Below are positions 21,859-32,000 of a stretch of DNA of 32,000 nt, piece after piece (the first letter of the stretch is position 1; each line of letters starts with the position of its first letter). The notes under the pieces were generated by a model, which was given only the letters and a program-made list of their open reading frames with translations, made no database searches and was not told where the DNA came from. The stretch spans positions 1,500,001 to 1,532,000 of the forward strand of contig NC_017856.1 in the NCBI RefSeq assembly GCF_000260965.1, written 5' to 3'. The position numbers and the translations under genes were made by a program. Source of the stretch: Methylophaga frappieri. Its GTDB lineage: Bacteria; Pseudomonadota; Gammaproteobacteria; Nitrosococcales; Methylophagaceae.

Positions 21859-21906
21859 TCATTCCCGGCATCTGATTGCCGTATTTTGCCGATTAAAGAG
21901 ACCCCA

Positions 21907-23484
21907 ATGAGCAGCAATATTCACGATCACCGCATCCTCATCCTGGATTTTGGTTCGCAATACACGCAATTAATCGCCCGCCGCATTCGCGAAGCGGGCG
22001 TTTATTGTGAGTTACGCAACCCGGAAATGTCTGAAGCGGAAATTCGTGCGTTTAATCCCAGGGGCATCATTCTTTCTGGCGGCCCCGACTCCACCATTGG
22101 TGACGCTGCGCCGAGTGCGCCACAATGTGTTTTTGAACTGGGACTGCCAGTTTTAGGCATCTGCTACGGCATGCAAACCATGGCACAACAATTGGGCGGA
22201 CAGGTGGAATCATCCGCTCATCGCGAATTTGGTTATGCCCGTATTCGCGCGCGTGGCCATTCCGAACTGCTCCGTGAGATTGAAGATCATACGACAACCG
22301 AAGGCTGGGGCATGCTGGATGTGTGGATGAGCCATGGTGATCGCGTTGCCAGTTTGCCGGAAGGCTTTAAGGTGATAGCAAGTACAGATAGCGCGCCAAT
22401 TGCCGGTATGGCGAATGAATCGCGTCGGTTCTACGGTGTACAGTTTCACCCAGAGGTCACCCACACCACCCAGGGACAACGCATGATTGAGCGTTTCCTG
22501 ATTGATATCTGTGGCTGTGAAACCTTGTGGACCTCTGCCAATATCATCGAAGACAGTATTGCTGCCATTCGCGAACAAGTGGGCGATGACGAAGTGTTAT
22601 TGGGTTTGTCAGGTGGTGTTGACTCCTCGGTTGTAGCAGCATTACTGCATAAAGCGATTGGTGATCAACTGACCTGTGTCTTTGTTGATAACGGTCTGCT
22701 GCGTCAAAACGAAGGCGATCAGGTCATGGCCATGTTTGCCAAACACATGGGCATTCGTGTGATCCGCGCTGATGCCGAAGATCGTTTCCTCAACGCTTTG
22801 GAAGGCATCGATGATCCGGAACAAAAACGCAAAATCATCGGCAATAAGTTTGTCGACATTTTTGATGAAGAAGCCGCCAAACTGAAAAACGTCAAATGGC
22901 TGGCCCAAGGCACGATTTACCCGGATGTAATCGAGTCTGCCGCCGCAAAAACCGGTAAAGCGCATGTGATCAAAACACACCATAACGTCGGTGGATTGCC
23001 TGAGCACATGAAACTCAAACTGGTCGAACCATTACGCGAATTATTTAAAGACGAAGTCCGTAAACTCGGCGTCGAACTCGGTTTACCTTCAGACATGGTT
23101 TATCGTCACCCTTTCCCTGGCCCGGGTCTTGGCGTCAGAATTCTGGGTGAAGTGAAAAAAGAATTCGCCGACTTATTACGCAAAGCCGATCAAATCTTCA
23201 TCGCAGAATTACGCAAACACGACCTATATGACAAAACCAGTCAGGCATTTGCTGTCTTTCTGCCGGTGAAATCCGTCGGTGTAATGGGTGATGGCCGCCG
23301 TTATGATTATGTTGTGTCACTGCGTGCCGTGGAAACGATCGACTTTATGACCGCACGCTGGGCTAACTTGCCATACGATTTTCTGGATCTGGTTTCACGC
23401 CGCATCATTAATGAAACTGCCGGTATTTCACGGGTGGTCTACGACATTTCCGGCAAACCGCCTGCCACTATCGAGTGGGAATGA
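21907..23484 (+). CDS. guaA: Glutamine-hydrolysing GMP synthase
   Basis: GATase domain ([24 protein letters not shown]), ATP-PPase P-loop SGGVDSSV and the C-terminal end ...[12 protein letters not shown] 21907 is preferred over TTG 21886. Confidence 0.97.
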
Positions 23485-23611: not shown

Positions 23612-23766
23612 TCATGGTATTTTTGATGGTATTGTTCGAGCTGATACCGCGACCTCAAAGAAATACCATGCCATGAATTTTGGAGTAGTCATGGTATCGA
23701 AAATCACTAACATGCTGATATTAAAGGAAATATAGGCGAAAAATACGGCATGTTTGATCATGGTAT
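23612..23766. repeat. Five copies of ATGGTAT (four direct, one inverted) upstream of int; candidate arm-type integrase/RDF binding sites
   Basis: ATGGTAT occurs at 23614-23620, 23626-23632, 23691-23697 and 23760-23766. The inverted copy ATACCAT is at 23663-23669. Three copies share the extended form TCATGGTAT. Confidence 0.5.
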
Positions 23767-23792
23767 TAAGGACGAGAAAAGGAGGATTAGCC

Positions 23793-24989
23793 ATGCTGAC
23801 CGATACCAAGCTTCGCAACCTGAAACCTCAAGACAAGCTCTACAAGGTCAACGACCGAGACGGCCTTTACGTAGCAGTCACACCGGCAGGGACAATCTCT
23901 TTTAGACATAACTACTCCATCAGCGGCCGTCAGGAGACGTTGACCATCGGTCGATATGGCAGTGGCGGTATCACACTGGCGGAAGCGCGGGAACTGCTGA
24001 GCGAAGCAAAGAAAATGATTGCAGCCGGCAAATCCCCGGCCAGAGAGAAAGCGCGCGACAAATCGCGCGTGAAGGATGCCGAAACATTCGGGGCATGGGC
24101 TGAAAAATGGTTGCGCGGCTATCAGATGGCTGACTCGACACGCGACATGCGTAAATCGGTCTACAATCGTGAGTTGAAAAAGCGCTTCGGCAATCAGAAA
24201 TTATCTGAGATCACACATGAGGATCTCCGGGCAGTGACCGATGCCATCGTGGAAAGAGGAGCGCCAGCAACAGCCGTCCACGCCCGAGAAGTGGTATTAC
24301 AGGTTTATCGGTGGGCGATCGAACGCGGACAGAAAGTTGAAAACCCCGCTGAAATGGTTCGCCCCAACAGTATCGCCAGATTCGAACCCCGAGACCGCGC
24401 CCTGAGTCCTGCCGAAATTGGTCTGATGTATCGGTACATGGATCGAATCGGGACCTCGCCGCAATATAGAGCCGCAATCAAGCTGCTGTTATTGACCATG
24501 GTCAGAAAATCCGAGTTGTCCAACGCCACCTGGGAAGAGATCAATTTTAGCGAGGCACTCTGGACGATCCCGAAACAGCGTATGAAGCGACGAAATCCAC
24601 ATTTGGTGTTTCTGTCTCGCCAGGCACTGGATATCTTTATCGCACTGAAGACCTTTGCCGGTGGCTCTGAATTCGTGCTTCCCTCGCGGTATGATTCCGA
24701 CTTGCCTATGAGTGCAGCGACTTTGAATCGCGTTCTTGCCCTGACGTATCAGGCTGCACAAAAGGATGGTGAACAGCTTGGTAAATTTGGTCCGCACGAT
24801 CTGCGTCGCACAGCCAGCACCTTATTGCATGAAGCAGGCTACAACACTGATTGGATTGAAAAGTGTCTTGCCCATGAGCAGAAAGGAGTAAGGGCAATTT
24901 ACAATAAAGCCGAATACCGGGAGCAACGGGCGGCGATGTTGCAAGACTGGGCTGACATGATTGACGAGTGGACTAGCGTGAAACGTTAA
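23793..24989 (+). CDS. int: P4-type tyrosine integrase (DUF4102 arm-binding N-terminus)
   Basis: The N-terminus MLTDTKLRNLKPQDKLYKVNDRDGLYVAVTPAGTISFRHNY is the typical DUF4102/Arm-DNA-bind_3 opening. C-terminal catalytic motifs are HDLRRTAST, LAHE and IYNKAEY. ATG 23793 follows AAAAGGAGG. Confidence 0.93.
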   Translation: MLTDTKLRNLKPQDKLYKVNDRDGLYVAVTPAGTISFRHNYSISGRQETLTIGRYGSGGITLAEARELLSEAKKMIAAGKSPAREKARDKSRVKDAETFGAWAEKWLRGYQMADSTRDMRKSVYNRELKKRFGNQKLSEITHEDLRAVTDAIVERGAPATAVHAREVVLQVYRWAIERGQKVENPAEMVRPNSIARFEPRDRALSPAEIGLMYRYMDRIGTSPQYRAAIKLLLLTMVRKSELSNATWEEINFSEALWTIPKQRMKRRNPHLVFLSRQALDIFIALKTFAGGSEFVLPSRYDSDLPMSAATLNRVLALTYQAAQKDGEQLGKFGPHDLRRTASTLLHEAGYNTDWIEKCLAHEQKGVRAIYNKAEYREQRAAMLQDWADMIDEWTSVKR

Positions 24990-25221
24990 TGGGGATTCCT
25001 GGCCGGATAGGTTGATCTTCAGACTCTTTGCGCGATTCGATCCACTTTTCCACCTCGGCCAAGTCCCAGGCGACATTGCGGCTTGTCAGCACGATTCTGC
25101 GCGGAAAGTCGCCTCGTTTCTCCATATTGAAGATGGCGCGATCTGAAAGCGGAATCATAGCCAGTAATGTTTTTCGATTGATTAAAGTCTTTCTTGGTCG
25201 AGTAGGGTGTCCGTCATCCAT
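24973..25221 (-). CDS. alpA: AlpA-family phage-type transcriptional regulator/excisionase
   Basis: LINRKTLLAMIPLSDRAIFNMEKRGDFPRRIVLTSRNVAWDLAEVEKWIESRK matches the AlpA (MerR-like winged HTH) pattern. It is convergent with int and overlaps it by 17 nt. Confidence 0.8.
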   Translation of the reverse strand: MDDGHPTRPRKTLINRKTLLAMIPLSDRAIFNMEKRGDFPRRIVLTSRNVAWDLAEVEKWIESRKESEDQPIRPGIPINVSR

Positions 25222-25283
25222 TGCTTCTCACTCTCGCTCCGGACCGCACGTGTCAGAGTCTTAGGCTTGCCAAAAACTAAACG

Positions 25284-25335
25284 TTAGCACCGTGCAAATC
25301 ATTTTGGCAAAAGAGAATGTTTAGCAATGTGATAA
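25284..25335. promoter_or_regulatory. Two TTAGCA-N3-TGCTAA-like palindromes upstream of alpA (candidate repressor operators)
   Basis: TTAGCAccgTGCAAA (25284-25298) and TTAGCAatgTGATAA (25321-25335). Each matches the motif found in the cI/cro intergenic region at 11/12 positions. Confidence 0.5.
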
Positions 25336-25464
25336 ACAATTACTGCATCAGGGTGGGGTGACGGACTTAGGAGTGTTGCCGTGACAGCGTCATTCACCAT
25401 ATTTGCGCTGCATGCGATCACTCGAAATTATTGTTGCTCGTGTCTCTGGGTCCGCTGGGAAAAC

Positions 25465-26139
25465 TCAGACCACCTCCCCCTTGAAGACAATGACTCCACA
25501 GATTGTCGCTTCTTCATCCACTTCGATAATGCGATTCGGCCAGTCAGGGTTGAGTGCCTTCAGGTACTGCTTGCCCTCTTCAATAATTAACTGCTTGAAC
25601 GTGGCTTCATTGGATTCATCGAGTCGAACAACCACGTACTTTCCGTGGTCAGGTGAAACATTGGGGTCAACAAAAATCAGGTCGCCCTCATGAAATTTGG
25701 GTTCCATACTGCTGCCGCGAACCCTAAGTACAAAGGATTCAGGACTACAACACACCGGGCAGGGTAAAAGTTCTGAACCGTAGGCCGGTACGAAACTTTC
25801 AGAAATCTCATACCAGTTTCCCGCTTGGACCCAGGATATCAGCGGGTGGAGACTGCGCAAATCCGGGCCGTCGTGGGCGTTGTGTTCCTCTTGTCTTGCC
25901 CCGTCCGCATGGGGGGTATCCATCCATCCTTGGTCTTTATTCATAGCCTTTTCCAGTTTTTCCGCCAGCTCATCTCCGATAGAGCGGGGCGTTCCTTTTT
26001 TGGTTGGCAGCTGGTTGCGCACCTGGCTGAGGTAGGAGCTATTGGTCCCAGCCGCGCGCGCCAACTTGGCAGCTGACCCCGCTTCGGCAATCAAAACCTC
26101 AAGATTGTGGAGCCGGATCTGGTTAAGTTTTAGCGTCAT
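25465..26139 (-). CDS. CI/LexA-type repressor (XRE HTH + S24 peptidase autocleavage domain)
   Basis: N-terminal HTH (GSAAKLARAAGTNSSYLSQVRN), candidate Ala-Gly cleavage site in PLISWVQAGNW, Ser nucleophile in VRGSSMEP, and Lys in ATFKQL. Confidence 0.9.
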   Translation of the reverse strand: MTLKLNQIRLHNLEVLIAEAGSAAKLARAAGTNSSYLSQVRNQLPTKKGTPRSIGDELAEKLEKAMNKDQGWMDTPHADGARQEEHNAHDGPDLRSLHPLISWVQAGNWYEISESFVPAYGSELLPCPVCCSPESFVLRVRGSSMEPKFHEGDLIFVDPNVSPDHGKYVVVRLDESNEATFKQLIIEEGKQYLKALNPDWPNRIIEVDEEATICGVIVFKGEVV

Positions 26140-26223
26140 GCGAAATACTTTAGCAGATAATTTAGCAGGATGCTAAGCAAAAACGTGGTGCTTGTCGTTG
26201 CCCGATGATTCGCACGGTGCTAA
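26130..26223. promoter_or_regulatory. Operator cluster in the repressor/cro divergent intergenic region
   Basis: Perfect palindrome TTAGCAggaTGCTAA (26162-26176) and near-perfect TTCGCAcggTGCTAA (26209-26223). A weaker copy TTAGCGtcaTGCGAA (26130-26144) overlaps the repressor start codon. There is also an extra half-site TTAGCA at 26150-26155. Confidence 0.55.
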
Positions 26224-26234
26224 TGTTTTTACGC

Positions 26235-26522
26235 ATGGAGCTAAAGGACTTTCTCAAAGTGGCAACCAAGCGGGAGCGGGCCGACGTCGCTGCGGCGTGT
26301 GGCGACTCAGTCTCCTACTTGTATCAGATTGCCGGCCAGCATCGATATGCCAGTCCATTGATGGCGACGCAAATCGAGCATTACACACGTACTGTGGCGG
26401 ACCTTTCGGATGGTCGACTGGAGCCTGTGCCTCGGGCGAGCATGGTTCGACATCCAGAGATTTTCTACGGCGTCGTGCCTGAATCGGGTGCACAAGAAGC
26501 AGGTGGTAACGATGACGCCTGA
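26235..26522 (+). CDS. Cro/YdaS-like small HTH protein, divergent from the repressor
   Basis: MELKDFLKVATKRERADVAAACGDSVSYLYQIAGQHRYASPLMATQIE resembles YdaS/Cro-type HTH proteins. The start is ambiguous (26205, 26223 or 26235). 26235 is preferred because the earlier starts overlap the 26209-26223 operator. Confidence 0.6.
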   Translation: MELKDFLKVATKRERADVAAACGDSVSYLYQIAGQHRYASPLMATQIEHYTRTVADLSDGRLEPVPRASMVRHPEIFYGVVPESGAQEAGGNDDA

Positions 26523-28029
26523 GAGATCGCCATCCGTCCACGAGATCACCCGTGTAGACGTCACTCGTATCCACCATTACTCCCGCAATCCCCGCCGGCA
26601 GCAGAACCCGGAATACGATCGAATAAAGGCGTCGATCCAGGCTGAAGGCCTGGATCAACCATTGGTGCTATCACAGGAGCCGGGGGCTGCTGATTATGTG
26701 CTCCACAGTGGCGGCAATACACGGCTGAGGATACTGAAGGAGCTTTTGGACGAAACCGGCGATGAGCGATTTCGCTGGATCGATTGCGTCGTCAAGCCCT
26801 GGTCGCAGGAGTCCAATGTACTTTTTGCCCACCTCCGGGAAAACGAATTGCGCGGCGGTTTGCCTTTCATCGATAAAGCGTTGGCCGTATTCGAAGCAAA
26901 GTCTCTCCTCGAAAGCGAGATGGAGGTTGAGAGCCTGTCTCAGCGCCAACTGGAAGAGCTGTTCAGAGAGCGAGGTTTCGGGCTCAGCCACAGCATGATT
27001 TCCAAAATGGGATATGCCGTTGAGACCTTGTGGCCATTGATGCCAAAAGCCTTAGCTGCCGGATTGGGTCGACCACAGGTGGAAAAGATCCGAGCCCTTG
27101 AACGCGCTGCCCGAGCGATCTGGGATCGTCGCCAATTGGGGGATAACACCGTCTTCGATGCGATCTTTGCCGAGTTGTGTCGCCGTTATGATGGCGCCGA
27201 ATGGGACATTCAGCCACTGCGCGATGCATTGGAAAATGAGATCGCCGTGGAGTCCGAACTGAATCGCCAGGTGATTCATCTGGAGATGGAGGCACAACTA
27301 TCGGGCCGCGCATTCAGCCTTCCCGCTCATACCGAAGAGGTTACAGAGCCGGGGGCGGACAGGGACCCGGAACACCCGGAGCATTCTGATAGTGGGCCGC
27401 CATCGAATACGACGACATTGGAAAAGCAGCCCGCTGACATCGATTCACCGGCGAGTGGTCATGACAAAAGCAAAGACCAACCGAACATGCCGGCTGAGTT
27501 GACCTCTGCGCCGAATTCCCAAAAAGGTGGTCAGCAAAGAAATCTTGAGGTTTTGCGGAGCCAGTTGTGGGACTGCGCAGTAACCCTGGCGACATCCCAC
27601 GGACTGCACGAGACAGTCATTCATCTGCCGGATCAGGGCTTGGGCTTTCTGCTGATTGATGTGCCTTCACCGGAGCTGCGGGAATCCCTTGACCAGGACA
27701 TGCTGGATTTAGTGTCCGCACTCTGGTGGCAGTTGGCTGCGAGCTCAGAGTTGACCGTCGCTCCCACGGACATTGTCCTGGCCTACCTGGATAAAGACTC
27801 GTCCCTATACCAGGCCTTGGCATCCCATGATGCCGGTCTGCTCTTTGGCAGTGTCTGGACGCCTGATCCCGGCCATCTCAACAGCCAGCTCTGGCAGCAA
27901 TTGAACCCGCCAGACTGGCAGCGTTTGCTGCAAATGATGGAGTCCTACCGGAGCATTAAACGGTTAGCCTTCGATACTGGGGTCGAGCTTTGGGCGCAAC
28001 AAGGAGGTGAAAGCGATGTCGTCCAATAA
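26512..28029 (+). CDS. ICE-type ParB-like N-terminal domain protein (PFGI-1-class ParB / BisD-like)
   Basis: ParB/Srx-type N-terminus (ITRVDVTRIHHYSRNPR...IKASIQAEGLDQPLVL...YVLHSGGNTRLRILKEL), a long acidic/Pro-rich linker and a C-terminal domain. ATG 26512 follows AGGTGG and overlaps the cro-like stop by 11 nt. Confidence 0.85.
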   Translation: MTPERSPSVHEITRVDVTRIHHYSRNPRRQQNPEYDRIKASIQAEGLDQPLVLSQEPGAADYVLHSGGNTRLRILKELLDETGDERFRWIDCVVKPWSQESNVLFAHLRENELRGGLPFIDKALAVFEAKSLLESEMEVESLSQRQLEELFRERGFGLSHSMISKMGYAVETLWPLMPKALAAGLGRPQVEKIRALERAARAIWDRRQLGDNTVFDAIFAELCRRYDGAEWDIQPLRDALENEIAVESELNRQVIHLEMEAQLSGRAFSLPAHTEEVTEPGADRDPEHPEHSDSGPPSNTTTLEKQPADIDSPASGHDKSKDQPNMPAELTSAPNSQKGGQQRNLEVLRSQLWDCAVTLATSHGLHETVIHLPDQGLGFLLIDVPSPELRESLDQDMLDLVSALWWQLAASSELTVAPTDIVLAYLDKDSSLYQALASHDAGLLFGSVWTPDPGHLNSQLWQQLNPPDWQRLLQMMESYRSIKRLAFDTGVELWAQQGGESDVVQ

Positions 28030-28618
28030 GGAAGCCGACCTCACCACCGCCGTGCTGTTGTACGCCATGCGATGTCTGGCAGAGGGGGATCAGCAGGCAT
28101 TGCGCGCCATGAACTTTGGCCCCAAAGAACTGGACGCCCTGAAAGAGATGAATCTGGCCGATCTCTATCGGGCCGATGCACTGCGTGTGCACTGTCTGCA
28201 GATTGGTCTCAATCGTGATGTTTTTTGGCCGATGCTCGATCACCTGCGTCATCAGCGGGAATCTGAGGATCTCCAGCGAACATTGCTGGTCGCGGACGCA
28301 CCGTTAGAGATGATGCAGCAGCTGTTTGGTGTGAGTTCTCGGGAGTACACGCGATGGCGCCGATTGTTGACGCTGGCGCCGGCCGTGGGCCGGCCTCCCG
28401 AACTGAATGAAACCGATACCCACGCGCTCTGGTATGCCTGGCAGGATAAGGTTCAGGCGGATGACAAATCCACATTAACTGCAGAGGACTATCTCGACCT
28501 ACAGCAACAGACAGGCATTGGATTGCGATCGATTTGGGCGCTGGTGCAGCGTTGGGAAACCTACGGTGAGGGAAGCAGTGCCGCGACGTCCGGGCGGGTT
28601 GTCGAGAATGGCCCATGA
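28016..28618 (+). CDS. DUF2857 protein (STY4526/YPO1902 family pathogenicity-island protein; BisC-like)
   Basis: LLYAMRCLAEGDQQALRAMNFGPKELDALKEMNLADLYR...MMQQLFGVSSREYTRWRRLL matches my recollection of this family. ATG 28016 follows AAGGAGGTG and overlaps the ParB-like stop by 14 nt. Confidence 0.75.
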   Translation: MSSNKEADLTTAVLLYAMRCLAEGDQQALRAMNFGPKELDALKEMNLADLYRADALRVHCLQIGLNRDVFWPMLDHLRHQRESEDLQRTLLVADAPLEMMQQLFGVSSREYTRWRRLLTLAPAVGRPPELNETDTHALWYAWQDKVQADDKSTLTAEDYLDLQQQTGIGLRSIWALVQRWETYGEGSSAATSGRVVENGP

Positions 28619-29864
28619 TGCGGATGCGCTGCGACCAGAAACTGTTGCTCTCGACGCTTTAATCAAGGCAACTGTTGCCAAGGTTCGTGCCCAGAGTGAT
28701 CCATCGTTACCGGATGCCATGTTGTTCATGGGGAATTGGCATCAGGCCGTGCCGGCCATGGTCATCCAGGACCCGGTGTTGGAACCCGTCGATAAACTGG
28801 TATGGATGGTTATCATGCTCCATGCCAGAGAGACTGGAGGACGAACGGCGTTTCCCGATTACGATACCATTGCGGCTAAAACTAACGTTTCCTCAACCTC
28901 CACTGTCTCTCGTGCTATTGCCATTCTGCGCTTGACGCGTTGGCTAACGCTGTGTGCCAGAGTGCGTCAAAAAAGCGGCCGTTTCACCGGCAATGTCTAC
29001 AGTCTTCACGATGAACCCCTGCCTCTGGTCGATGCCCTGTACCTGGATGAGTCCTACATGGCATTCGTTACCCAATCCCAGGAGCATCATCACGCCCGCG
29101 TCCGGCGCGTGGCGCAAGCTGTGTTGGAGAGTCTGGATAAGGATATTCAGGAAGGCGAGTCGTTAGGACGGAAGGAGTCAACTATTGAGCGTCGACTGCA
29201 GGCCGCCCAACAATTGTCAGTTTCCAGCGGAAACCACGGCAACAGCGGTCGTTATTTTACCTTTCACGCCGCGACCATCGGGAAACTGAAAAATTCGTCC
29301 GGGGCCTGCGCATCAGCACAATCCGTCCAGGACCAAAATTCAAAGGCGGAGGCTAAGGAACACTACAGTAGTCGTTGTAGTAGTCATTATAAAAAAACAA
29401 CTACAACAACCACTACACAAAATACAAACCATGAAGAGAAAACATTTTCTGAATCCAATCCATCAGTCCCGTCGGTGACAGAGCGAGCGCTGATCTATCC
29501 GCCGCGCTTGTCGGAGAACCAGAAACACCTGGCGGACAGGTATCTTGCCATGATCGATCTTGATGATCGGCAGTTGGTGCTCGACGAACTTCAGGGTCGT
29601 CTGGAGTCTGAGCAAAAAGGCATGAAGCCGGTTTATGACGAGCTGCGATTCTTGCATTCGCTGTGCAAGGCGGCACAACAAGGCGAATTTGTGCCCAACC
29701 TCGGGATCAAGGTGGCCGAGGCAAGACAAGATCGGGCACATCACGTACCACCGCCAGAAAACGAAGAACAGAAAACTAAAGCGGCTGAAGAGCGAGCACG
29801 AAACCAAGCCTATGGGCGTGAGCAGCTGGCCAAGTTACGAGCATCATTGAATATGGATAAATAG
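28608..29864 (+). CDS. STY4528-family pathogenicity-island replication protein (winged-helix N-terminus)
   Basis: VIQDPVLEPVDKLVWMVIMLHARETGGRTAFPDYDTIAAKTNVSSTSTVSRAIAILRLTRWLTL is the typical conserved N-terminal region. ATG 28608 overlaps the upstream stop by 11 nt. The centre has a poly-Thr low-complexity segment. Confidence 0.78.
   Translation: MAHDADALRPETVALDALIKATVAKVRAQSDPSLPDAMLFMGNWHQAVPAMVIQDPVLEPVDKLVWMVIMLHARETGGRTAFPDYDTIAAKTNVSSTSTVSRAIAILRLTRWLTLCARVRQKSGRFTGNVYSLHDEPLPLVDALYLDESYMAFVTQSQEHHHARVRRVAQAVLESLDKDIQEGESLGRKESTIERRLQAAQQLSVSSGNHGNSGRYFTFHAATIGKLKNSSGACASAQSVQDQNSKAEAKEHYSSRCSSHYKKTTTTTTTQNTNHEEKTFSESNPSVPSVTERALIYPPRLSENQKHLADRYLAMIDLDDRQLVLDELQGRLESEQKGMKPVYDELRFLHSLCKAAQQGEFVPNLGIKVAEARQDRAHHVPPPENEEQKTKAAEERARNQAYGREQLAKLRASLNMDK
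29362..29416. repeat. AT-rich inverted repeat / ACTAC-GTAGT pentamer cluster embedded in the STY4528-family gene
   Basis: GTAGTCGTTGTAGTAGT (29368-29384) pairs with ACTACAACAACCACTAC (29400-29416) at 15/17 positions across a 15-nt A-rich loop (cattataaaaaaaca). A further ACTAC-a-GTAGT palindrome lies at 29362-29372. Confidence 0.5.
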
Positions 29865-30042
29865 CGCGACCGCCCGTTATCACACGTGATGTGACATATC
29901 TCCGTCGTTACTTCCCTGCACTGTTTCCACTGGAACCATCTGATCGCAGCAACGCAAAACACTGCACCAGTCGGATGGATATTCCGTGGTGCCATTTTCC
30001 CATTCGTGGATTCATAGCACGTCAGAGTTGATCTTGAAGGGA

Positions 30043-30792
30043 ATGACGCAAATGAATTCAGACGCAGAACAGTCACACGAGAATACAGCTGAAAATCAAA
30101 ACGAGTCAGTGCCAGGCGCCCTGCAGGGTGAAGTCTGGTTGACGATTCAGACCTATCAGGCTCAGAGCCTGATCCGCGGCCGCCGTGCAGCCGATGGCAA
30201 GCCTGCCATTATGGGATTGATCGGTTTTGCAGATCGGCTGAAGTCGCTATGGCAGGCCGTCCGCTTCGACGACCCTTATGCCGACTGGTGGTTGCTCAAA
30301 GTGGAAGAGGGCGTTGCCGATATCCGCGCACAGCTGCAGGGATTGCAGCAAAGGATGGACGCCCTTATCACTGAATCCAACAGTGCTCTCGAATTCAGCG
30401 TCGCACAATCGAGTCGACCACAGCGCGTATCGTTACAGTTCGCCAATCCCTACGCCTTCCGCGCTGCACAGTTGCTGGGTGAGTACGACCGGTTGATGTG
30501 CGCAGACATGACGTTGCATTACTTAGGTCTCGACATGCCCACTGACCTCATTGAGCAGGTGTCGGGTAGTGGGCGATGGGTGCGCCGGGTGTTTGCGTTG
30601 CCCCAGGGGTATCACTGCCTGGACGTTCGTCGCTCCGATATCCGGCAAGGAACACCGGCAGCCATCAAAGCGAGAGAGCGGATGGGCGAGATTCCCCAGG
30701 ACATCCTCAATGGTGAGCGGTTGCCGTCTCTGCGTCCCCTGGCATTTCAACAGCTGAATAACAACGCCATCGCAGATTCTGACGAGGGCTGA
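30043..30792 (+). CDS. PFL_4669-family integrating conjugative element protein (TIGR03761-like)
   Basis: The position after the STY4528-family gene, and sequence such as AIMGLIGFADRLKSLWQAVRFDDPYADWWLLKVEEG, fit my recollection of this ICE family. ATG 30043 follows AAGGGA. The track start GTG 29986 is less likely. Confidence 0.7.
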   Translation: MTQMNSDAEQSHENTAENQNESVPGALQGEVWLTIQTYQAQSLIRGRRAADGKPAIMGLIGFADRLKSLWQAVRFDDPYADWWLLKVEEGVADIRAQLQGLQQRMDALITESNSALEFSVAQSSRPQRVSLQFANPYAFRAAQLLGEYDRLMCADMTLHYLGLDMPTDLIEQVSGSGRWVRRVFALPQGYHCLDVRRSDIRQGTPAAIKARERMGEIPQDILNGERLPSLRPLAFQQLNNNAIADSDEG

Positions 30793-30797
30793 ACGCC

Positions 30798-31193
30798 GTG
30801 GCCACCAGCACGCTTCAGCAGCTTGTCATCTCGCTCGATACGCGAATTCCACTCGAAGCGATGGTGCTTCAGCGTTTACGCCGCCTGCCTAACAGCAGAC
30901 AAAACGAGTGGTTGCGGCAGCTGTTGCTGGTGGGATTTCGAAGCGAGTGTCAGGCCATCCGATCTGAGCAAGCGCTGCCGGCACACGCAATGCCTATGAG
31001 CCAGCCGTGTACATCCACCCAGATAAACGGAAGTCGCGGAGCGGGTTCCGTCCAGCCGCGAACAACCGAGACGATGCTCGATCACGCTGCGCGGTCACCT
31101 GGCAGCTCACACAACAGCGAACGCGCCAGGCTTGCTCCCCCAAACGACACCAGAAAACCCTTTACGCACCTGAGACGAGTGATCGGTGAGTAA
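30798..31193 (+). CDS. Hypothetical protein, possible ribbon-helix-helix N-terminus with disordered tail
   Basis: 131-aa GTG-start ORF. The N-terminus QQLVISLDTRIPLEAMVLQRLRRLPNSRQNEWLRQLLLVGF has a beta-alpha-alpha pattern and the C-terminal half is S/P/R/T-rich. I recognise no family. Confidence 0.4.
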   Translation: MATSTLQQLVISLDTRIPLEAMVLQRLRRLPNSRQNEWLRQLLLVGFRSECQAIRSEQALPAHAMPMSQPCTSTQINGSRGAGSVQPRTTETMLDHAARSPGSSHNSERARLAPPNDTRKPFTHLRRVIGE

Positions 31194-31225
31194 AGACGTC
31201 TAACCCCGATATCAGGAATCGCACC

Positions 31226-32000
31226 ATGACAGAACTGACCGATGAGAAATTTTCTGACGAAGACAAACCTCCCGTGACCACTCATCCCATGGCGGTTGGG
31301 CAGGTGGGTCTCGATGACGGCTATGCCTATACCAAAGTGGCGTTACCGGATGGTCGCCTCCTGGCGGTGCCTTCGCGGGCACGCATGGGATCGGCCGGTG
31401 TCACCTGGATACGGGATGAGGAACAGAAAATTTTTGAGTACGAAACCGGTGGCAGTGTGTATTCCGTCGGTGCGGTCGATGGTGAGCCCACTCAATTCGA
31501 TGAATACCCGGGCTCGGCCCTGAATCGGGTGATCGTCCAGCATGCACTGCAACAGGCGGGTTTGTCGGGCCGATCCGTCCATGTGGTGACGGGGTTGCCG
31601 GTCTCCGCCTTTTACCGCAACGATGGTCAGCAACGACGACGAGCGATCCAGGCAAAAAGGGAGGGTTTGAAATTGGCGGTTGAGCCTGTTGTTGCCAGAA
31701 AAGCATCGCAAAGGGCAGCGCAACAGGGGCTCCTAAAGGTGAGCATCGCCTTTCATGAAGTTATTCCGGAGGCGCTGGCTGCCTGGTACGACTATGTGAT
31801 TGTTATGACCGATGATGATGGTGTGACGTTGGACGCGGATCGGGTCAACGCGCCCATCGCCATTGTCGATATCGGTGGCCGCACCACGGATTATGTGGTG
31901 GTCCAGGACCAGGGCATTGTGCATGGTTCCTCCGGCTCTCTGAATCGCGGCATGCTGAACGTCAAGATTCGCGTGGCGAACCGTATACAGGAACAGTTCG
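31226..32000 (+). CDS. ParM/StbA-family actin-like segregation ATPase (5' partial, runs off the window)
   Basis: I translated this by hand from ATG 31226 and found no stop through 32000, which is why it is absent from the ORF track. Actin-fold phosphate motifs are VGLDDGYAYTK and IAIVDIGGRTTDY, plus VVTGLPVSAF. Confidence 0.85.
   Translation, partial: MTELTDEKFSDEDKPPVTTHPMAVGQVGLDDGYAYTKVALPDGRLLAVPSRARMGSAGVTWIRDEEQKIFEYETGGSVYSVGAVDGEPTQFDEYPGSALNRVIVQHALQQAGLSGRSVHVVTGLPVSAFYRNDGQQRRRAIQAKREGLKLAVEPVVARKASQRAAQQGLLKVSIAFHEVIPEALAAWYDYVIVMTDDDGVTLDADRVNAPIAIVDIGGRTTDYVVVQDQGIVHGSSGSLNRGMLNVKIRVANRIQEQF

What the first reader, a model, noticed from the sequence alone, without database searches (positions are those of the whole stretch)
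25465..28618. Lambda-like, probably SOS-cleavable switch wired directly to a ParB-like/DUF2857 (BisD/BisC-like) pair: a control layout I do not recognise as described for this ICE family
The repressor has all the features needed for RecA-stimulated self-cleavage: AG in SWVQAGNW, GSSMEP Ser and FKQL Lys. Its divergent partner, the cro-like gene, is the first gene of an operon whose members overlap by 11, 14 and 11 nt: cro-like, ParB-like, DUF2857, STY4528 family. As I recall, in ICEclc a ParB-domain protein and its small partner (BisD/BisC) form the feed-forward activator of transfer competence, switched on through LysR-type regulators and an alpA promoter. I remember nothing there like a CI/Cro switch. 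If the pair here is equivalent, this element replaces that upstream cascade with a prophage/SXT-style DNA-damage input. Via the shared operators, that input would also gate alpA. This may be a hybrid regulatory system worth characterising.
Basis: partly seen in the sequence, partly recalled or inferred. Interest (0 to 1): 0.75.

Follow-up and report, generated by a model that had tools for sequence, protein, structure and literature searches.

The report
Phage-type cI/cro switch driving ICE activator genes
A mobile element inserted in the guaA gene of a marine bacterium carries a phage-lambda-style repressor/anti-repressor switch wired directly to the two genes that act as master activators of DNA transfer in related elements, which suggests that DNA damage switches on its spread; this wiring is shared by many marine relatives and I found no description of it in the papers searched.

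Summary
The window holds the left end of an ICE of the ICEclc/ICEHin1056/pKLC102/SPI-7 (PFGI-1 class) superfamily, inserted in the 3' end of guaA.

- **Repressor:** a lambda-CI-type S24 protein (25465-26139, -). Its Ala-Gly, Ser and Lys align exactly with the lambda CI cleavage and catalytic residues.
- **Cro-like gene:** a YdaS/Cro-like gene faces the repressor. Its start is better placed at 26235 than at 26205. It overlaps a ParB-like gene, which overlaps a DUF2857 gene, which overlaps an STY4528-family gene (11, 14 and 11 nt).
- **Homology to BisD/BisC:** the pair is homologous to BisD/BisC. TIGR03764 scores 317 bits and DUF2857 gives 1.7e-57. Identity to an ICEclc-type pair is 39% and 30%. 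The domain architecture is the same as BisD.
- **Operators:** a 15-bp palindrome, TTAGCA-N3-TGCTAA, occurs three times between cI and cro and twice upstream of alpA, where about 30 nt of the cro promoter/operator block is duplicated.
- **Conservation:** 61 of 80 related loci, all from marine or sediment bacteria, share the layout. Ten others carry an FlhDC-like pair at the same position.
- **Contrast with ICEclc:** no TciR, BisR, ParA or Shi homologue lies nearby.

SOS induction and activator function are inferred, not shown. This is a new variant built from known kinds: SXT-like SetR/CroS logic with a BisDC-like output.

The parts
23224..23484 (+). Left junction (attL region). The last ~250 bp of guaA appear to be supplied by the element.
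   Evidence: About 90% nucleotide similarity to other copies of the element in different hosts begins at 23224-23239. The host guaA proteins are only 68-78% identical.
23754..24989 (+). P4-type tyrosine integrase, guaA-specific class
   Evidence: Pfam Phage_integrase, Arm-DNA-bind_3 and Phage_int_M. It is 73% identical at the DNA level to a guaA-adjacent integrase in E. coli.
24973..25221 (-). alpA (excisionase / regulator type)
   Evidence: Pfam Phage_AlpA 3.4e-11. PHROG 'excisionase and transcriptional regulator' 6.3e-10.
25281..25310 (-). Predicted alpA promoter: -35 TTGCCA (25310-25305), 18-nt spacer, extended -10 TGcTAACGT (25289-25281)
   Evidence: Read from the sequence. It aligns with the cro promoter over a shared block ATGATTyGCACGGTGCTAAyGTTT. 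Inference; no transcript data.
25284..25298 (.). Operator OA1 (TTAGCACCGTGCAAA), overlapping the alpA -10 and spacer
   Evidence: One mismatch to TTAGCA-N3-TGCTAA. A pair of such sites is conserved upstream of the alpA or xis-like gene in related loci.
25321..25335 (.). Operator OA2 (TTAGCAATGTGATAA)
   Evidence: One mismatch. It is conserved 37 bp from OA1 in related loci.
25465..26139 (-). Lambda-CI-type repressor with an S24 self-cleavage domain (A106-G107, S144, K182)
   Evidence: Among 44 distinct homologues, Ser is kept in 44 and Lys in 40. The nearest annotated relatives are temperate-phage cI proteins at 35-47% identity.
26130..26144 (.). Operator O1 (TTAGCGTCATGCGAA), over the cI start codon
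26147..26176 (-). Predicted cI promoter: -35-like TTAGCA inside O2, extended -10 TGcTAAAGT (26155-26147) 7 nt before the ATG, so the mRNA would be leaderless or nearly so
   Evidence: Read from the sequence. Inference.
26162..26176 (.). Operator O2 (TTAGCAGGATGCTAA), a perfect palindrome
   Evidence: Zero mismatches. Conserved in related loci.
26198..26226 (+). Predicted cro-operon promoter: -35 TTGCCC (26198-26203), 17-nt spacer, extended -10 TGcTAATGT (26218-26226), 8 nt before the ATG
   Evidence: Sequence. The block GCACGGTGCTAATGT...CATGGAGCTAAAG is conserved in loci whose ParB is only 45-70% identical. Inference.
26209..26223 (.). Operator O3 (TTCGCACGGTGCTAA), overlapping the cro -10
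26235..26522 (+). Cro-like (YdaS/Cro-type) HTH protein, 95 aa, first gene of the operon
   Evidence: Start supported. Profile search: the best PDB hits are phage Cro/YdaS 8co2 and 8c7k (E about 0.1). AF2 model pLDDT 74; best fold match is YdaS 8c7k (probability 0.84, TM 0.45). Weak PHROG repressor hit. No Pfam family.
26512..28029 (+). BisD-like ParB-family protein: CTP-clamp N-domain (G68NTR71, E110NELR114), 68-aa disordered linker, helical C-domain
   Evidence: TIGR03764 317 bits. 39% identity to an ICEclc-type BisD. hhalign 100% probability for the N-domain. C-domain 85% probability, E 6e-6. AF2 and Foldseek.
28016..28618 (+). BisC-like DUF2857 protein
   Evidence: Pfam DUF2857 1.7e-57. 30% identity, E 4e-17, full length, to an ICEclc-type BisC homologue.
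28608..29864 (+). STY4528-family protein (counterpart of ICEclc orf96323)
   Evidence: NCBIfam 212 bits, cut-off 130. 30% identity to the L092 counterpart.
30052..30792 (+). PFL_4669 / AcaB-family protein
   Evidence: TIGR03761 226 bits; Pfam AcaB 4e-79. 31% identity to the L092 counterpart. The 246-aa version is the one called in public assemblies.

Best explanation
This is the regulatory head of an integrative conjugative element (MPF_G, PFGI-1 class) inserted in the 3' end of guaA.

1. A lambda-CI-type repressor binds 15-bp palindromic operators (TTAGCA-N3-TGCTAA). Three lie in the 95-bp cI/cro intergenic region and two lie upstream of alpA.
2. In the quiescent state the repressor shuts two nearly identical promoters. 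One drives the overlapping operon cro - bisD-like - bisC-like - STY4528-family gene. The other drives alpA, the excision and regulatory gene next to int.
3. DNA damage activates RecA, which stimulates self-cleavage of the repressor at A106-G107 by the S144/K182 dyad.
4. Both promoters then fire. The Cro-like protein keeps cI off, which locks the decision. AlpA promotes excision. The ParB-like CTP clamp and its DUF2857 partner activate the downstream transfer genes, as BisDC does in ICEclc.

What is shown: gene content, overlaps, homology, operator positions and their conservation. What is inferred: operator occupancy, promoter positions, RecA-dependent cleavage, Cro antagonism and the activator role of the pair.
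For: - S24 repressor with the cleavage site and catalytic dyad aligned to lambda CI. Ser is invariant and Lys nearly invariant in 44 distinct homologues.
- Operators are confined to the two regulatory regions: 5 hits against 0.62 expected in the window, and 132 hits in 17.8 kb against 7 in 379 kb over 31 related loci.
- The alpA promoter region duplicates the cro promoter/operator block. In elements with a different integrase module the operator pair sits upstream of the xis-like HTH_17 gene instead.
- No LexA box is present, so any SOS input would come through repressor cleavage.
- The cro-like protein matches YdaS/Cro in both sequence profile and fold, weakly.
- The gene overlaps are consistent with one coupled operon.
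- The pair is homologous to BisD/BisC with the same motifs and architecture (PMC7423338, PMC12409273).
- The layout is conserved in 61 of 80 loci, down to 44% ParB identity.
- A coupling-protein gene and DUF2859 lie about 10 kb downstream in loci with the identical AcaB protein.
- SGI-4, which carries the same ParB-DUF2857-STY4528-PFL_4669 core genes, transfers more after mitomycin C (PMC6543542).
Against: - No experimental data exist for any member of this clade.
- ICEclc itself is not induced by SOS inducers (PMC5812530).
- 15 of 44 repressor homologues have Val instead of Ala at the cleavage site and 4 have Arg for Lys, so cleavability may not be universal.
- The homology of the BisD-like C-terminal domain to the BisD activation domain is only moderately supported (85% probability).
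- No bisS-like long palindrome was found in the roughly 7-10 kb examined.
- The Cro-like assignment rests on marginal scores (E about 0.1, TM 0.45).
- cI and alpA are co-directional with no terminator detected between them, so read-through from the cI promoter could complicate control of alpA.
Confidence: 0.6

Rival explanations
1. The switch is real but not SOS-driven. The S24 repressor would be a stable immunity repressor inactivated by another route, such as an antirepressor, a growth-phase signal or another protease. Its S24 domain would serve mainly for dimerisation.
For: - 15 of 44 homologues carry Val-Gly rather than Ala-Gly, and 4 carry Arg for the catalytic Lys.
- ICEclc is not induced by SOS inducers (PMC5812530).
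- No LexA box is nearby.
Against: - The window protein has the canonical Ala-Gly, Ser and Lys, aligned residue for residue with lambda CI.
- Ser is invariant in 44 of 44 homologues, which is hard to explain without catalysis.
- Its relatives are cI repressors of temperate phages.
Confidence: 0.25
2. The ParB-like, DUF2857 and STY4528-family genes serve replication and partition of the excised element rather than transcription activation. The cI/cro switch would then control maintenance functions, and the transfer genes would be controlled elsewhere.
For: - The STY4528 family is named 'pathogenicity island replication protein' by NCBIfam.
- Mavrodi et al. placed the region around these genes at the putative oriV of PFGI-1 and pKLC102 (PMC2647930).
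- A ParM/StbA-like partition ATPase lies just downstream in related loci.
- BisD itself is proposed to have a second, DNA-clamping role (PMC12409273).
Against: - No ParA partner lies next to the ParB-like gene.
- The protein has the long linker and the extra helical C-domain that canonical ParB lacks; in BisD that domain is the part that activates together with BisC (PMC12409273).
- The DUF2857 partner is conserved in tandem in every locus.
- The two roles are not mutually exclusive.
Confidence: 0.2
3. The juxtaposition is accidental: a prophage or satellite remnant (int-alpA-cI-cro) landed beside an unrelated ICE core, with no functional coupling.
For: - The repressor is phage-like.
- Integration modules are exchanged between otherwise near-identical elements.
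Against: - cro overlaps the ParB-like gene by 11 nt.
- cI and cro stay with the ParB-DUF2857 operon in 61 of 80 loci across about 55% sequence divergence, and across swaps of the integrase module.
- The cro-like family is found neither in the phage nor in the plasmid collection.
Confidence: 0.03

Closest known systems
ICEclc BisDC master activator and its cascade (MfsR/TciR -> BisR -> PalpA -> alpA-parA-shi-bisD-bisC; PMC7423338, PMC12409273)
   Same: - A homologous ParB-like plus DUF2857 pair sits in tandem, followed by STY4528-family and PFL_4669-family genes.
- The GxxR and ENxxR CTP motifs are present.
- The architecture matches: ParB N-domain, a disordered linker of about 70 aa, and a helical C-domain.
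   Different: - No TciR, BisR, ParA, Shi or DUF3158 (InrR position) homologue is nearby.
- alpA is not the first gene of the operon; it lies on the other strand next to int.
- The operon is headed by a cro-like gene and faces an S24 repressor.
- Identity is only 39% and 30%, and the C-domain homology is only moderately supported.
SXT/R391 SetR / CroS - SetCD module (PMC5812530)
   Same: The logic and geometry match: a CI-like self-cleaving repressor is divergent from a cro-like gene, and that gene is the first gene of the operon encoding the master activator of excision and transfer.
   Different: - The output here is a ParB-like CTP clamp plus a DUF2857 protein, not the FlhDC-family SetCD.
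- The conjugation system is different (MPF_G class core genes).
Phage lambda CI/Cro immunity region
   Same: - S24 repressor with aligned Ala-Gly, Ser and Lys.
- Three operators between divergent promoters.
- A small Cro-type HTH protein on the other side.
- A possibly leaderless cI mRNA.
   Different: - It controls an ICE operon rather than lytic genes.
- A second operator pair controls the excision gene at a distance.
- The Cro-like protein belongs to the YdaS-like class, not the lambda Cro fold class.
SGI-4 and SPI-7-type ICEs, ICEHin1056, pKLC102/PAPI-1, PFGI-1
   Same: - They share the core order ParB - DUF2857 - STY4528 - PFL_4669.
- SGI-4 transfer is raised by mitomycin C (PMC6543542).
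   Different: - They have parA and/or dnaB upstream of parB, and no S24 repressor next to it in the annotated records inspected.
- The route of mitomycin C induction in SGI-4 is not known.

Membership tests
BisDC-type activator pair (ICEclc) | The small subunit carries DUF2857 (BisC) | tested here: met
   Pfam DUF2857 1.7e-57, covering 173 of 174 profile positions. 30% identity, E 4e-17, to the ICEclc-type homologue in L092.
BisDC-type activator pair (ICEclc) | The large subunit has a ParB-like N-domain with GxxR and ENxxR nucleotide-binding motifs | tested here: met
   G68NTR71 and E110NELR114 are invariant in alignment A1. TIGR03764 317 bits. hhalign 100% probability against the ICEclc/pKLC102/ICEHin1056 group. 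Foldseek hits to CTP-bound ParB, Noc and KorB, including 6SDK.
BisDC-type activator pair (ICEclc) | A long disordered linker followed by an all-helical C-terminal activation domain (BisDact) | tested here: inconclusive
   The architecture is met: AF2 gives 272-339 at pLDDT below 50, and 340-497 mostly helical (two short strands) and confident. Sequence homology of the C-domain to the ICEclc-type C-domain is moderate: hhalign 59%, then 85% probability, E 6e-6, over 126 collinear columns. BLASTP and tblastn found nothing.
BisDC-type activator pair (ICEclc) | parS-like bisS loading sites downstream of the pair | tested here: inconclusive
   No long palindrome was found in 25000-32000 or in 10 kb of L004. 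Most of the element lies outside the window.
BisDC-type activator pair (ICEclc) | Both proteins together, but neither alone, activate the transfer-competence promoters | not testable with these tools
   This needs reporter assays.
ICEclc-type upstream cascade | LysR (TciR) and BisR upstream, with alpA-parA-shi as the first genes of the bisDC operon | tested here: not met
   tblastn with the L091 and L092 proteins found no TciR-, BisR-, ParA- or Shi-like hit in the window or in 92 related loci. alpA is on the opposite strand next to int.
LexA / lambda CI self-cleaving repressors (MEROPS S24) | S24 domain with a Ser/Lys dyad and an Ala-Gly cleavage site in the hinge | tested here: met
   Pfam 9.5e-28. 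Residue-for-residue alignment with lambda CI.
LexA / lambda CI self-cleaving repressors (MEROPS S24) | N-terminal DNA-binding domain and cognate palindromic operators | tested here: met
   Residues 5-81 match PHROG repressor families (6e-14, 1.5e-7). Palindromic sites are enriched and conserved. Binding itself was not tested.
LexA / lambda CI self-cleaving repressors (MEROPS S24) | RecA-stimulated autoproteolysis | not testable with these tools
   This needs a cleavage assay.
SXT/R391 SetR-CroS-SetCD module | A cI-like repressor divergent from a cro-like gene that heads the master-activator operon | tested here: met
   Gene order and overlaps. This is an architectural match only.
SXT/R391 SetR-CroS-SetCD module | The master activator is the FlhDC-family SetCD | tested here: not met
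   The operon encodes TIGR03764 and DUF2857 proteins. FlhDC-like pairs occur only in other loci of the clade.
MPF_G / PFGI-1-class ICE | Signature core genes plus an integrase and conjugation genes | tested here: met
   TIGR03764, TIGR03761, STY4528_fam, DUF2857, an integrase and AlpA are in the window. A TraG-D_C coupling protein, DUF2859 and SLT genes lie downstream in loci that encode the identical AcaB protein. The conjugation genes themselves lie outside the window.

The most novel reading that the evidence does not exclude
A whole clade of ICEclc-superfamily elements in marine Gammaproteobacteria has placed the BisDC-type master activator, together with the excision gene alpA, under a single SOS-cleavable CI/Cro switch. 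This would be the first case in the superfamily where the inducing cue can be read from the sequence. The position just upstream of bisDC also behaves as a plug-in socket for alternative sensory heads: cI/cro in 61 loci, FlhDC-like (with a divergent TetR in some) in 10, and parA-based heads in the described relatives.
Probability: 0.45. Interest if true: 0.65.

Novelty: new variant of a known kind. Interest (0 to 1): 0.55.

Why it matters
For ICEclc-family elements the core activator BisDC is conserved, but the cues that start activation are unknown outside ICEclc itself. The 2023 and 2026 papers on P. aeruginosa ICEs state this explicitly.

This clade offers a cue that can be read from the sequence and tested directly: DNA damage acting through repressor self-cleavage. 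It also offers a compact two-promoter regulon (cro-bisDC and alpA) with defined operators. Cultured carriers exist, including Alcanivorax nanhaiticus, Porticoccus litoralis, Haliea salexigens and Oceanobacter antarcticus.

The finding also documents natural swapping of input modules in front of a conserved output. The element's regulatory region is almost identical (ParB-like protein 96-99% identical) across several genera of oil-degrading and coastal bacteria, which implies recent and frequent transfer.

Tried and rejected
- **LexA boxes:** CTGT-N8-ACAG gave no hit in the switch region, and the total count was at chance.
- **bisS/parS-like palindromes:** only weak palindromes inside coding sequence were found.
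- **ParB C-domain against plasmids:** tblastn gave no match. The homology question was therefore addressed by profile-profile comparison instead.
- **Pfam for the cro-like protein:** no credible family, only spurious weak hits.
- **Frame error:** I translated the cro-like gene from 26236, which is one base out of frame. The 'cro' hits in that call are not protein evidence and are superseded.
- **AcaB look-up:** the 268-aa GTG-start version of AcaB was found on only one short contig. The 246-aa version worked.
- **E. coli genomes:** only the integrase matched, in an unrelated guaA island.
- **Literature lead:** a paper on a Stenotrophomonas 'SOS-associated island' mentioned guaA only as an MLST locus.
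- **Rfam and tRNA scans of the window:** nothing found.
- **Generic sigma-70 scan:** it did not call the promoters I propose. They rest on extended -10 elements and on conservation across loci, and they are inferences.

Full report
**1. What is in the sequence**

Window 21886-23484 encodes guaA. It is followed by:
- a P4-type integrase (23754-24989, +);
- alpA (24973-25221, -);
- a 224-aa Peptidase_S24 repressor (25465-26139, -);
- a small divergent gene;
- four further + strand genes: a ParB-like gene (26512-28029), a DUF2857 gene (28016-28618), an STY4528-family gene (28608-29864) and a PFL_4669/AcaB-family gene (to 30792).

The family assignments are strong. TIGR03764 (ICE_PFGI_1_parB) scores 317 bits against a cut-off of 144. 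DUF2857 gives 1.7e-57. STY4528_fam scores 212 bits against 130. TIGR03761 scores 226 bits against 111.

These four genes, in this order, form the conserved core of ICEHin1056, pKLC102, SGI-4, a Pantoea conjugative plasmid and ICEclc-type elements.

Loci that encode exactly the same AcaB protein continue with ParM/StbA, DUF3577, RadC, DUF6573 and HipBA. After a further integrase-like gene and three small unassigned ORFs come SLT, DUF2859 and a TraG-D_C coupling protein. The element is therefore a conjugative element whose transfer genes lie beyond the window.

Similarity to other copies of the element begins at about 23224-23239. The element thus seems to supply the last ~250 bp of guaA.

**2. 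The repressor**

Its best solved relative is lambda CI (5.5e-10). The alignment puts VQ-A106-G107 on the lambda cleavage site A111-G112, S144 on S149 and K182 on K192.

Residues 5-81 match phage repressor families. The nearest annotated relatives are cI proteins of temperate phages at 35-47% identity.

Across 44 distinct homologues from related elements:
- Ser is invariant;
- Lys is kept in 40 (Arg in 4);
- Gly is kept in 39;
- Ala is kept in 29, with Val in 15.

The catalytic apparatus is thus under selection. The cleavage site is canonical in the window but not everywhere.

**3. The cro-like gene**

The ORF finder starts it at 26205. However, tblastn alignments start at residue 1 of the version beginning at ATG 26235 (MELKDF...) in 61 of the 80 loci from the genome scan and in all 6 loci fetched through the repressor.

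In one search I mistakenly translated from 26236, which is out of frame. Those 'cro' hits should be ignored.

The 95-aa protein has no Pfam family. A profile of 18 homologues finds the phage Cro/YdaS entries 8co2 and 8c7k as its two best PDB hits, aligned from residue 1 (E about 0.1). An AF2 model (pLDDT 74) has YdaS 8c7k as its best fold match (probability 0.84, TM 0.45), followed distantly by N15 Cro.

The label 'cro-like' is therefore reasonable but weakly supported. The family (262 clusters, all unnamed) is absent from the phage and plasmid collections.

**4. Operators and promoters**

The intergenic region holds a perfect palindrome, TTAGCAGGATGCTAA, at 26162. Two near-copies lie at 26130 (over the cI start codon) and 26209. 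Two more lie at 25284 and 25321, between cI and alpA.

With at most one mismatch to TTAGC-N5-GCTAA, the window has five hits, all at these places. Chance would give 0.62, and none of 100 shuffles reached five.

In 31 related loci, 132 of 139 hits with at most 2 mismatches fall either in the cI/cro intergenic region or within 450 bp downstream of cI. That is 17.8 kb out of 397 kb. These loci are related to one another, so the count shows conservation, not an independent probability.

The site at 26209 overlaps an extended -10 (TGcTAATGT), which has a -35 (TTGCCC) 17 nt upstream and lies 8 nt before the cro ATG.

On the minus strand, the site at 25284 lies in an almost identical block (ATGATTyGCACGGTGCTAAyGTTT). 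That block has a -35 (TTGCCA) 18 nt upstream and lies ahead of alpA. The two regions align with one 10-nt gap between the operators.

In elements that carry a different integrase module, the operator pair lies upstream of the HTH_17 (xis-like) gene next to that integrase.

cI also has an extended -10-like element 7 nt before its ATG, so both genes may be leaderless. All promoter positions are inferences: the generic scan did not call them.

There is no LexA box.

**5. Is the pair BisDC-like?**

The eLife paper states that BisC has DUF2857 and BisD a ParB domain (PMC7423338). The NAR 2025 paper describes BisD as a ParB-like CTP-binding part (G92NTR95, E136NELR140), a linker of about 70 aa, and a helical activation domain that works with BisC (PMC12409273).

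As a stand-in for ICEclc I used a Pseudomonas veronii plasmid locus (L092). It has the order LysR / BisR position / alpA / parA / shi position / parB / DUF2857 / STY4528 / PFL_4669, and a 553-aa ParB with GNTR at residues 92-95. I did not have the ICEclc sequence itself.

| Window protein | Comparison with L092 counterpart |
|---|---|
| ParB-like | 39% identity over 250 aa, E 3e-51 |
| DUF2857 | 30% identity, full length, E 4e-17 |
| STY4528-family | 30% identity |
| PFL_4669/AcaB | 31% identity |

Further points on the ParB-like protein:
- G68NTR71 and E110NELR114 are invariant in the window's clade.
- The AF2 model shows a confident ParB fold (10-270), a 68-aa disordered linker (272-339) and a confident, mostly helical C-domain (340-497).
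- Foldseek matches the N-part to CTP-bound ParB, Noc and KorB, including 6SDK, and finds nothing for the C-domain. The same was reported for BisD.
- Profile-profile comparison of the C-domains gives 59% probability with small alignments and 85% (E 6e-6, 126 collinear columns) with larger ones. Homology of the activation domain is likely but not settled.
- No bisS-like site was found in the sequence available.

**6. What replaces the ICEclc cascade**

tblastn with the TciR-like, BisR-like, ParA, Shi-position, DUF3158 and Ssb proteins of L091 and L092 finds nothing in the window or in 92 related loci. Only AlpA-type proteins match.

Here alpA is not the first gene of the operon. It lies on the other strand beside int.

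**7. How general is it?**

A scan of one genome per species with a ParB profile returned 80 loci. All come from marine or sediment bacteria, including Halieaceae, Porticoccaceae, Alcanivorax, Oceanobacter, Sedimenticola and Thiogranum.

| Gene directly upstream of the ParB-like gene | Loci (of 80) |
|---|---|
| cro-like gene (60 with the S24 repressor; in the 61st a contig end cuts it off) | 61 |
| FlhC-like gene, most with an FlhD-like gene before it, four with a divergent TetR | 10 |
| CI-type HTH protein without an S24 domain | 1 |
| Small unassigned ORFs or contig ends | 8 |

The cI/cro layout holds down to 44% ParB identity.

The repressor is 98-100% identical in elements whose ParB-like protein is 85-99% identical, and these sit in different genera. 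The same head is found with two different integration modules. This indicates recent transfer and modular exchange.

**8. Literature**

In the library searched, I found no paper describing an S24 repressor or a cI/cro pair next to bisDC/parB in this superfamily.

- The ICE review states that SOS inducers do not raise ICEclc excision. It describes the SXT module (SetR, CroS, the croS-setCD operon), which is the closest analogue in logic (PMC5812530).
- SGI-4, which has the same core genes, transfers more after mitomycin C by an unknown route (PMC6543542).
- The P. aeruginosa papers already note that upstream regulators vary while bisDC is conserved (PMC10732049, PMC13393423).

Absence from this library does not prove absence from the literature.

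**9. Verdict**

The most likely mechanism is a lambda/SXT-type bistable switch. Its repressor holds two near-identical promoters, one for cro-bisD-like-bisC-like and one for alpA. RecA-stimulated self-cleavage is the probable trigger, and BisDC-like activation is the probable output.

My confidence in each part:
- The switch architecture and the co-regulation of alpA: about 0.75.
- SOS as the signal: about 0.55.
- An activator role for the pair: about 0.6.

It is a new variant assembled from known kinds. It is conserved in a sizeable clade and can be tested directly in cultured strains.

Noticed in passing
L057 4945-5975; also L059, L061, L064, L065, L068, L069, L070, L074, L078 (just upstream of the ParB-like gene): In 10 of the 19 related loci that lack the cI/cro pair, an FlhC-like gene (Pfam FlhC 1e-16) sits directly upstream of the ParB-like/DUF2857 genes on the same strand. 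Most also have an FlhD-like gene before it (Pfam 4e-5, below the Pfam cut-off), and four have a divergent TetR regulator. A SetCD/AcaCD-type activator pair would thus sit in tandem with a BisDC-type pair.
   Followed up: partly
L002-L006, L008-L010, L012, L014, L096-L101 compared with window 23754-25221: The same cI-cro-ParB-DUF2857-STY4528-AcaB head (ParB-like protein 96-100% identical, repressor 99-100%) occurs with two different integration modules. One is the guaA P4-type int plus alpA. The other is a 453-aa integrase plus an HTH_17 xis-like gene, sometimes with an extra AlpA, at other chromosomal sites. The operator pair follows the xis-like gene.
   Followed up: partly
window 25465-26139 compared with 26512-28029, across L007-L086: The repressor is far better conserved than the ParB-like protein in the same loci. 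Examples: 100% against 96-99%, and about 76% against 48-50% in L051, L055 and L056. This suggests strong constraint on the immunity module, or its exchange between elements.
   Followed up: no
Repressor homologues in L007-L086 (alignment column of window residue A106): 15 of 44 distinct repressor homologues have Val-Gly (with Asp two residues earlier) in place of the canonical Ala-Gly cleavage site. Four have Arg in place of the catalytic Lys. Part of the clade may have altered or lost self-cleavage.
   Followed up: no
window 26147-26155 and 26218-26226: Both cI and the cro-like gene have an extended -10-like element (TGCTAAAGT and TGCTAATGT) ending 7-8 nt before their ATG, with no Shine-Dalgarno sequence. 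Both mRNAs may be leaderless, as lambda cI mRNA from PRM is.
   Followed up: no
window 23224-23484: Similarity to copies of the element in other hosts starts inside guaA, about 250 bp before its stop codon. The element appears to replace the 3' end of guaA on integration. An E. coli island with a 73%-identical integrase sits at the same site (L087).
   Followed up: partly
window 29986-30792 and 30798-31193: The PFL_4669-family protein matches Pfam AcaB ('Transcriptional regulator AcaB', 4e-79), so a further regulator may lie just downstream of the pair. The next ORF (131 aa) has no hit in Pfam, NCBIfam or PHROGs, but public assemblies call a gene at that position.
   Followed up: no
L083 (Blastocatellia MAG) and L079 (Nitrospira defluvii MAG): Two loci of this gammaproteobacterial element family sit on contigs binned to non-proteobacterial MAGs. 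L083 is a 2.2-kb contig. This is probably a binning artefact rather than a true host range.
   Followed up: no
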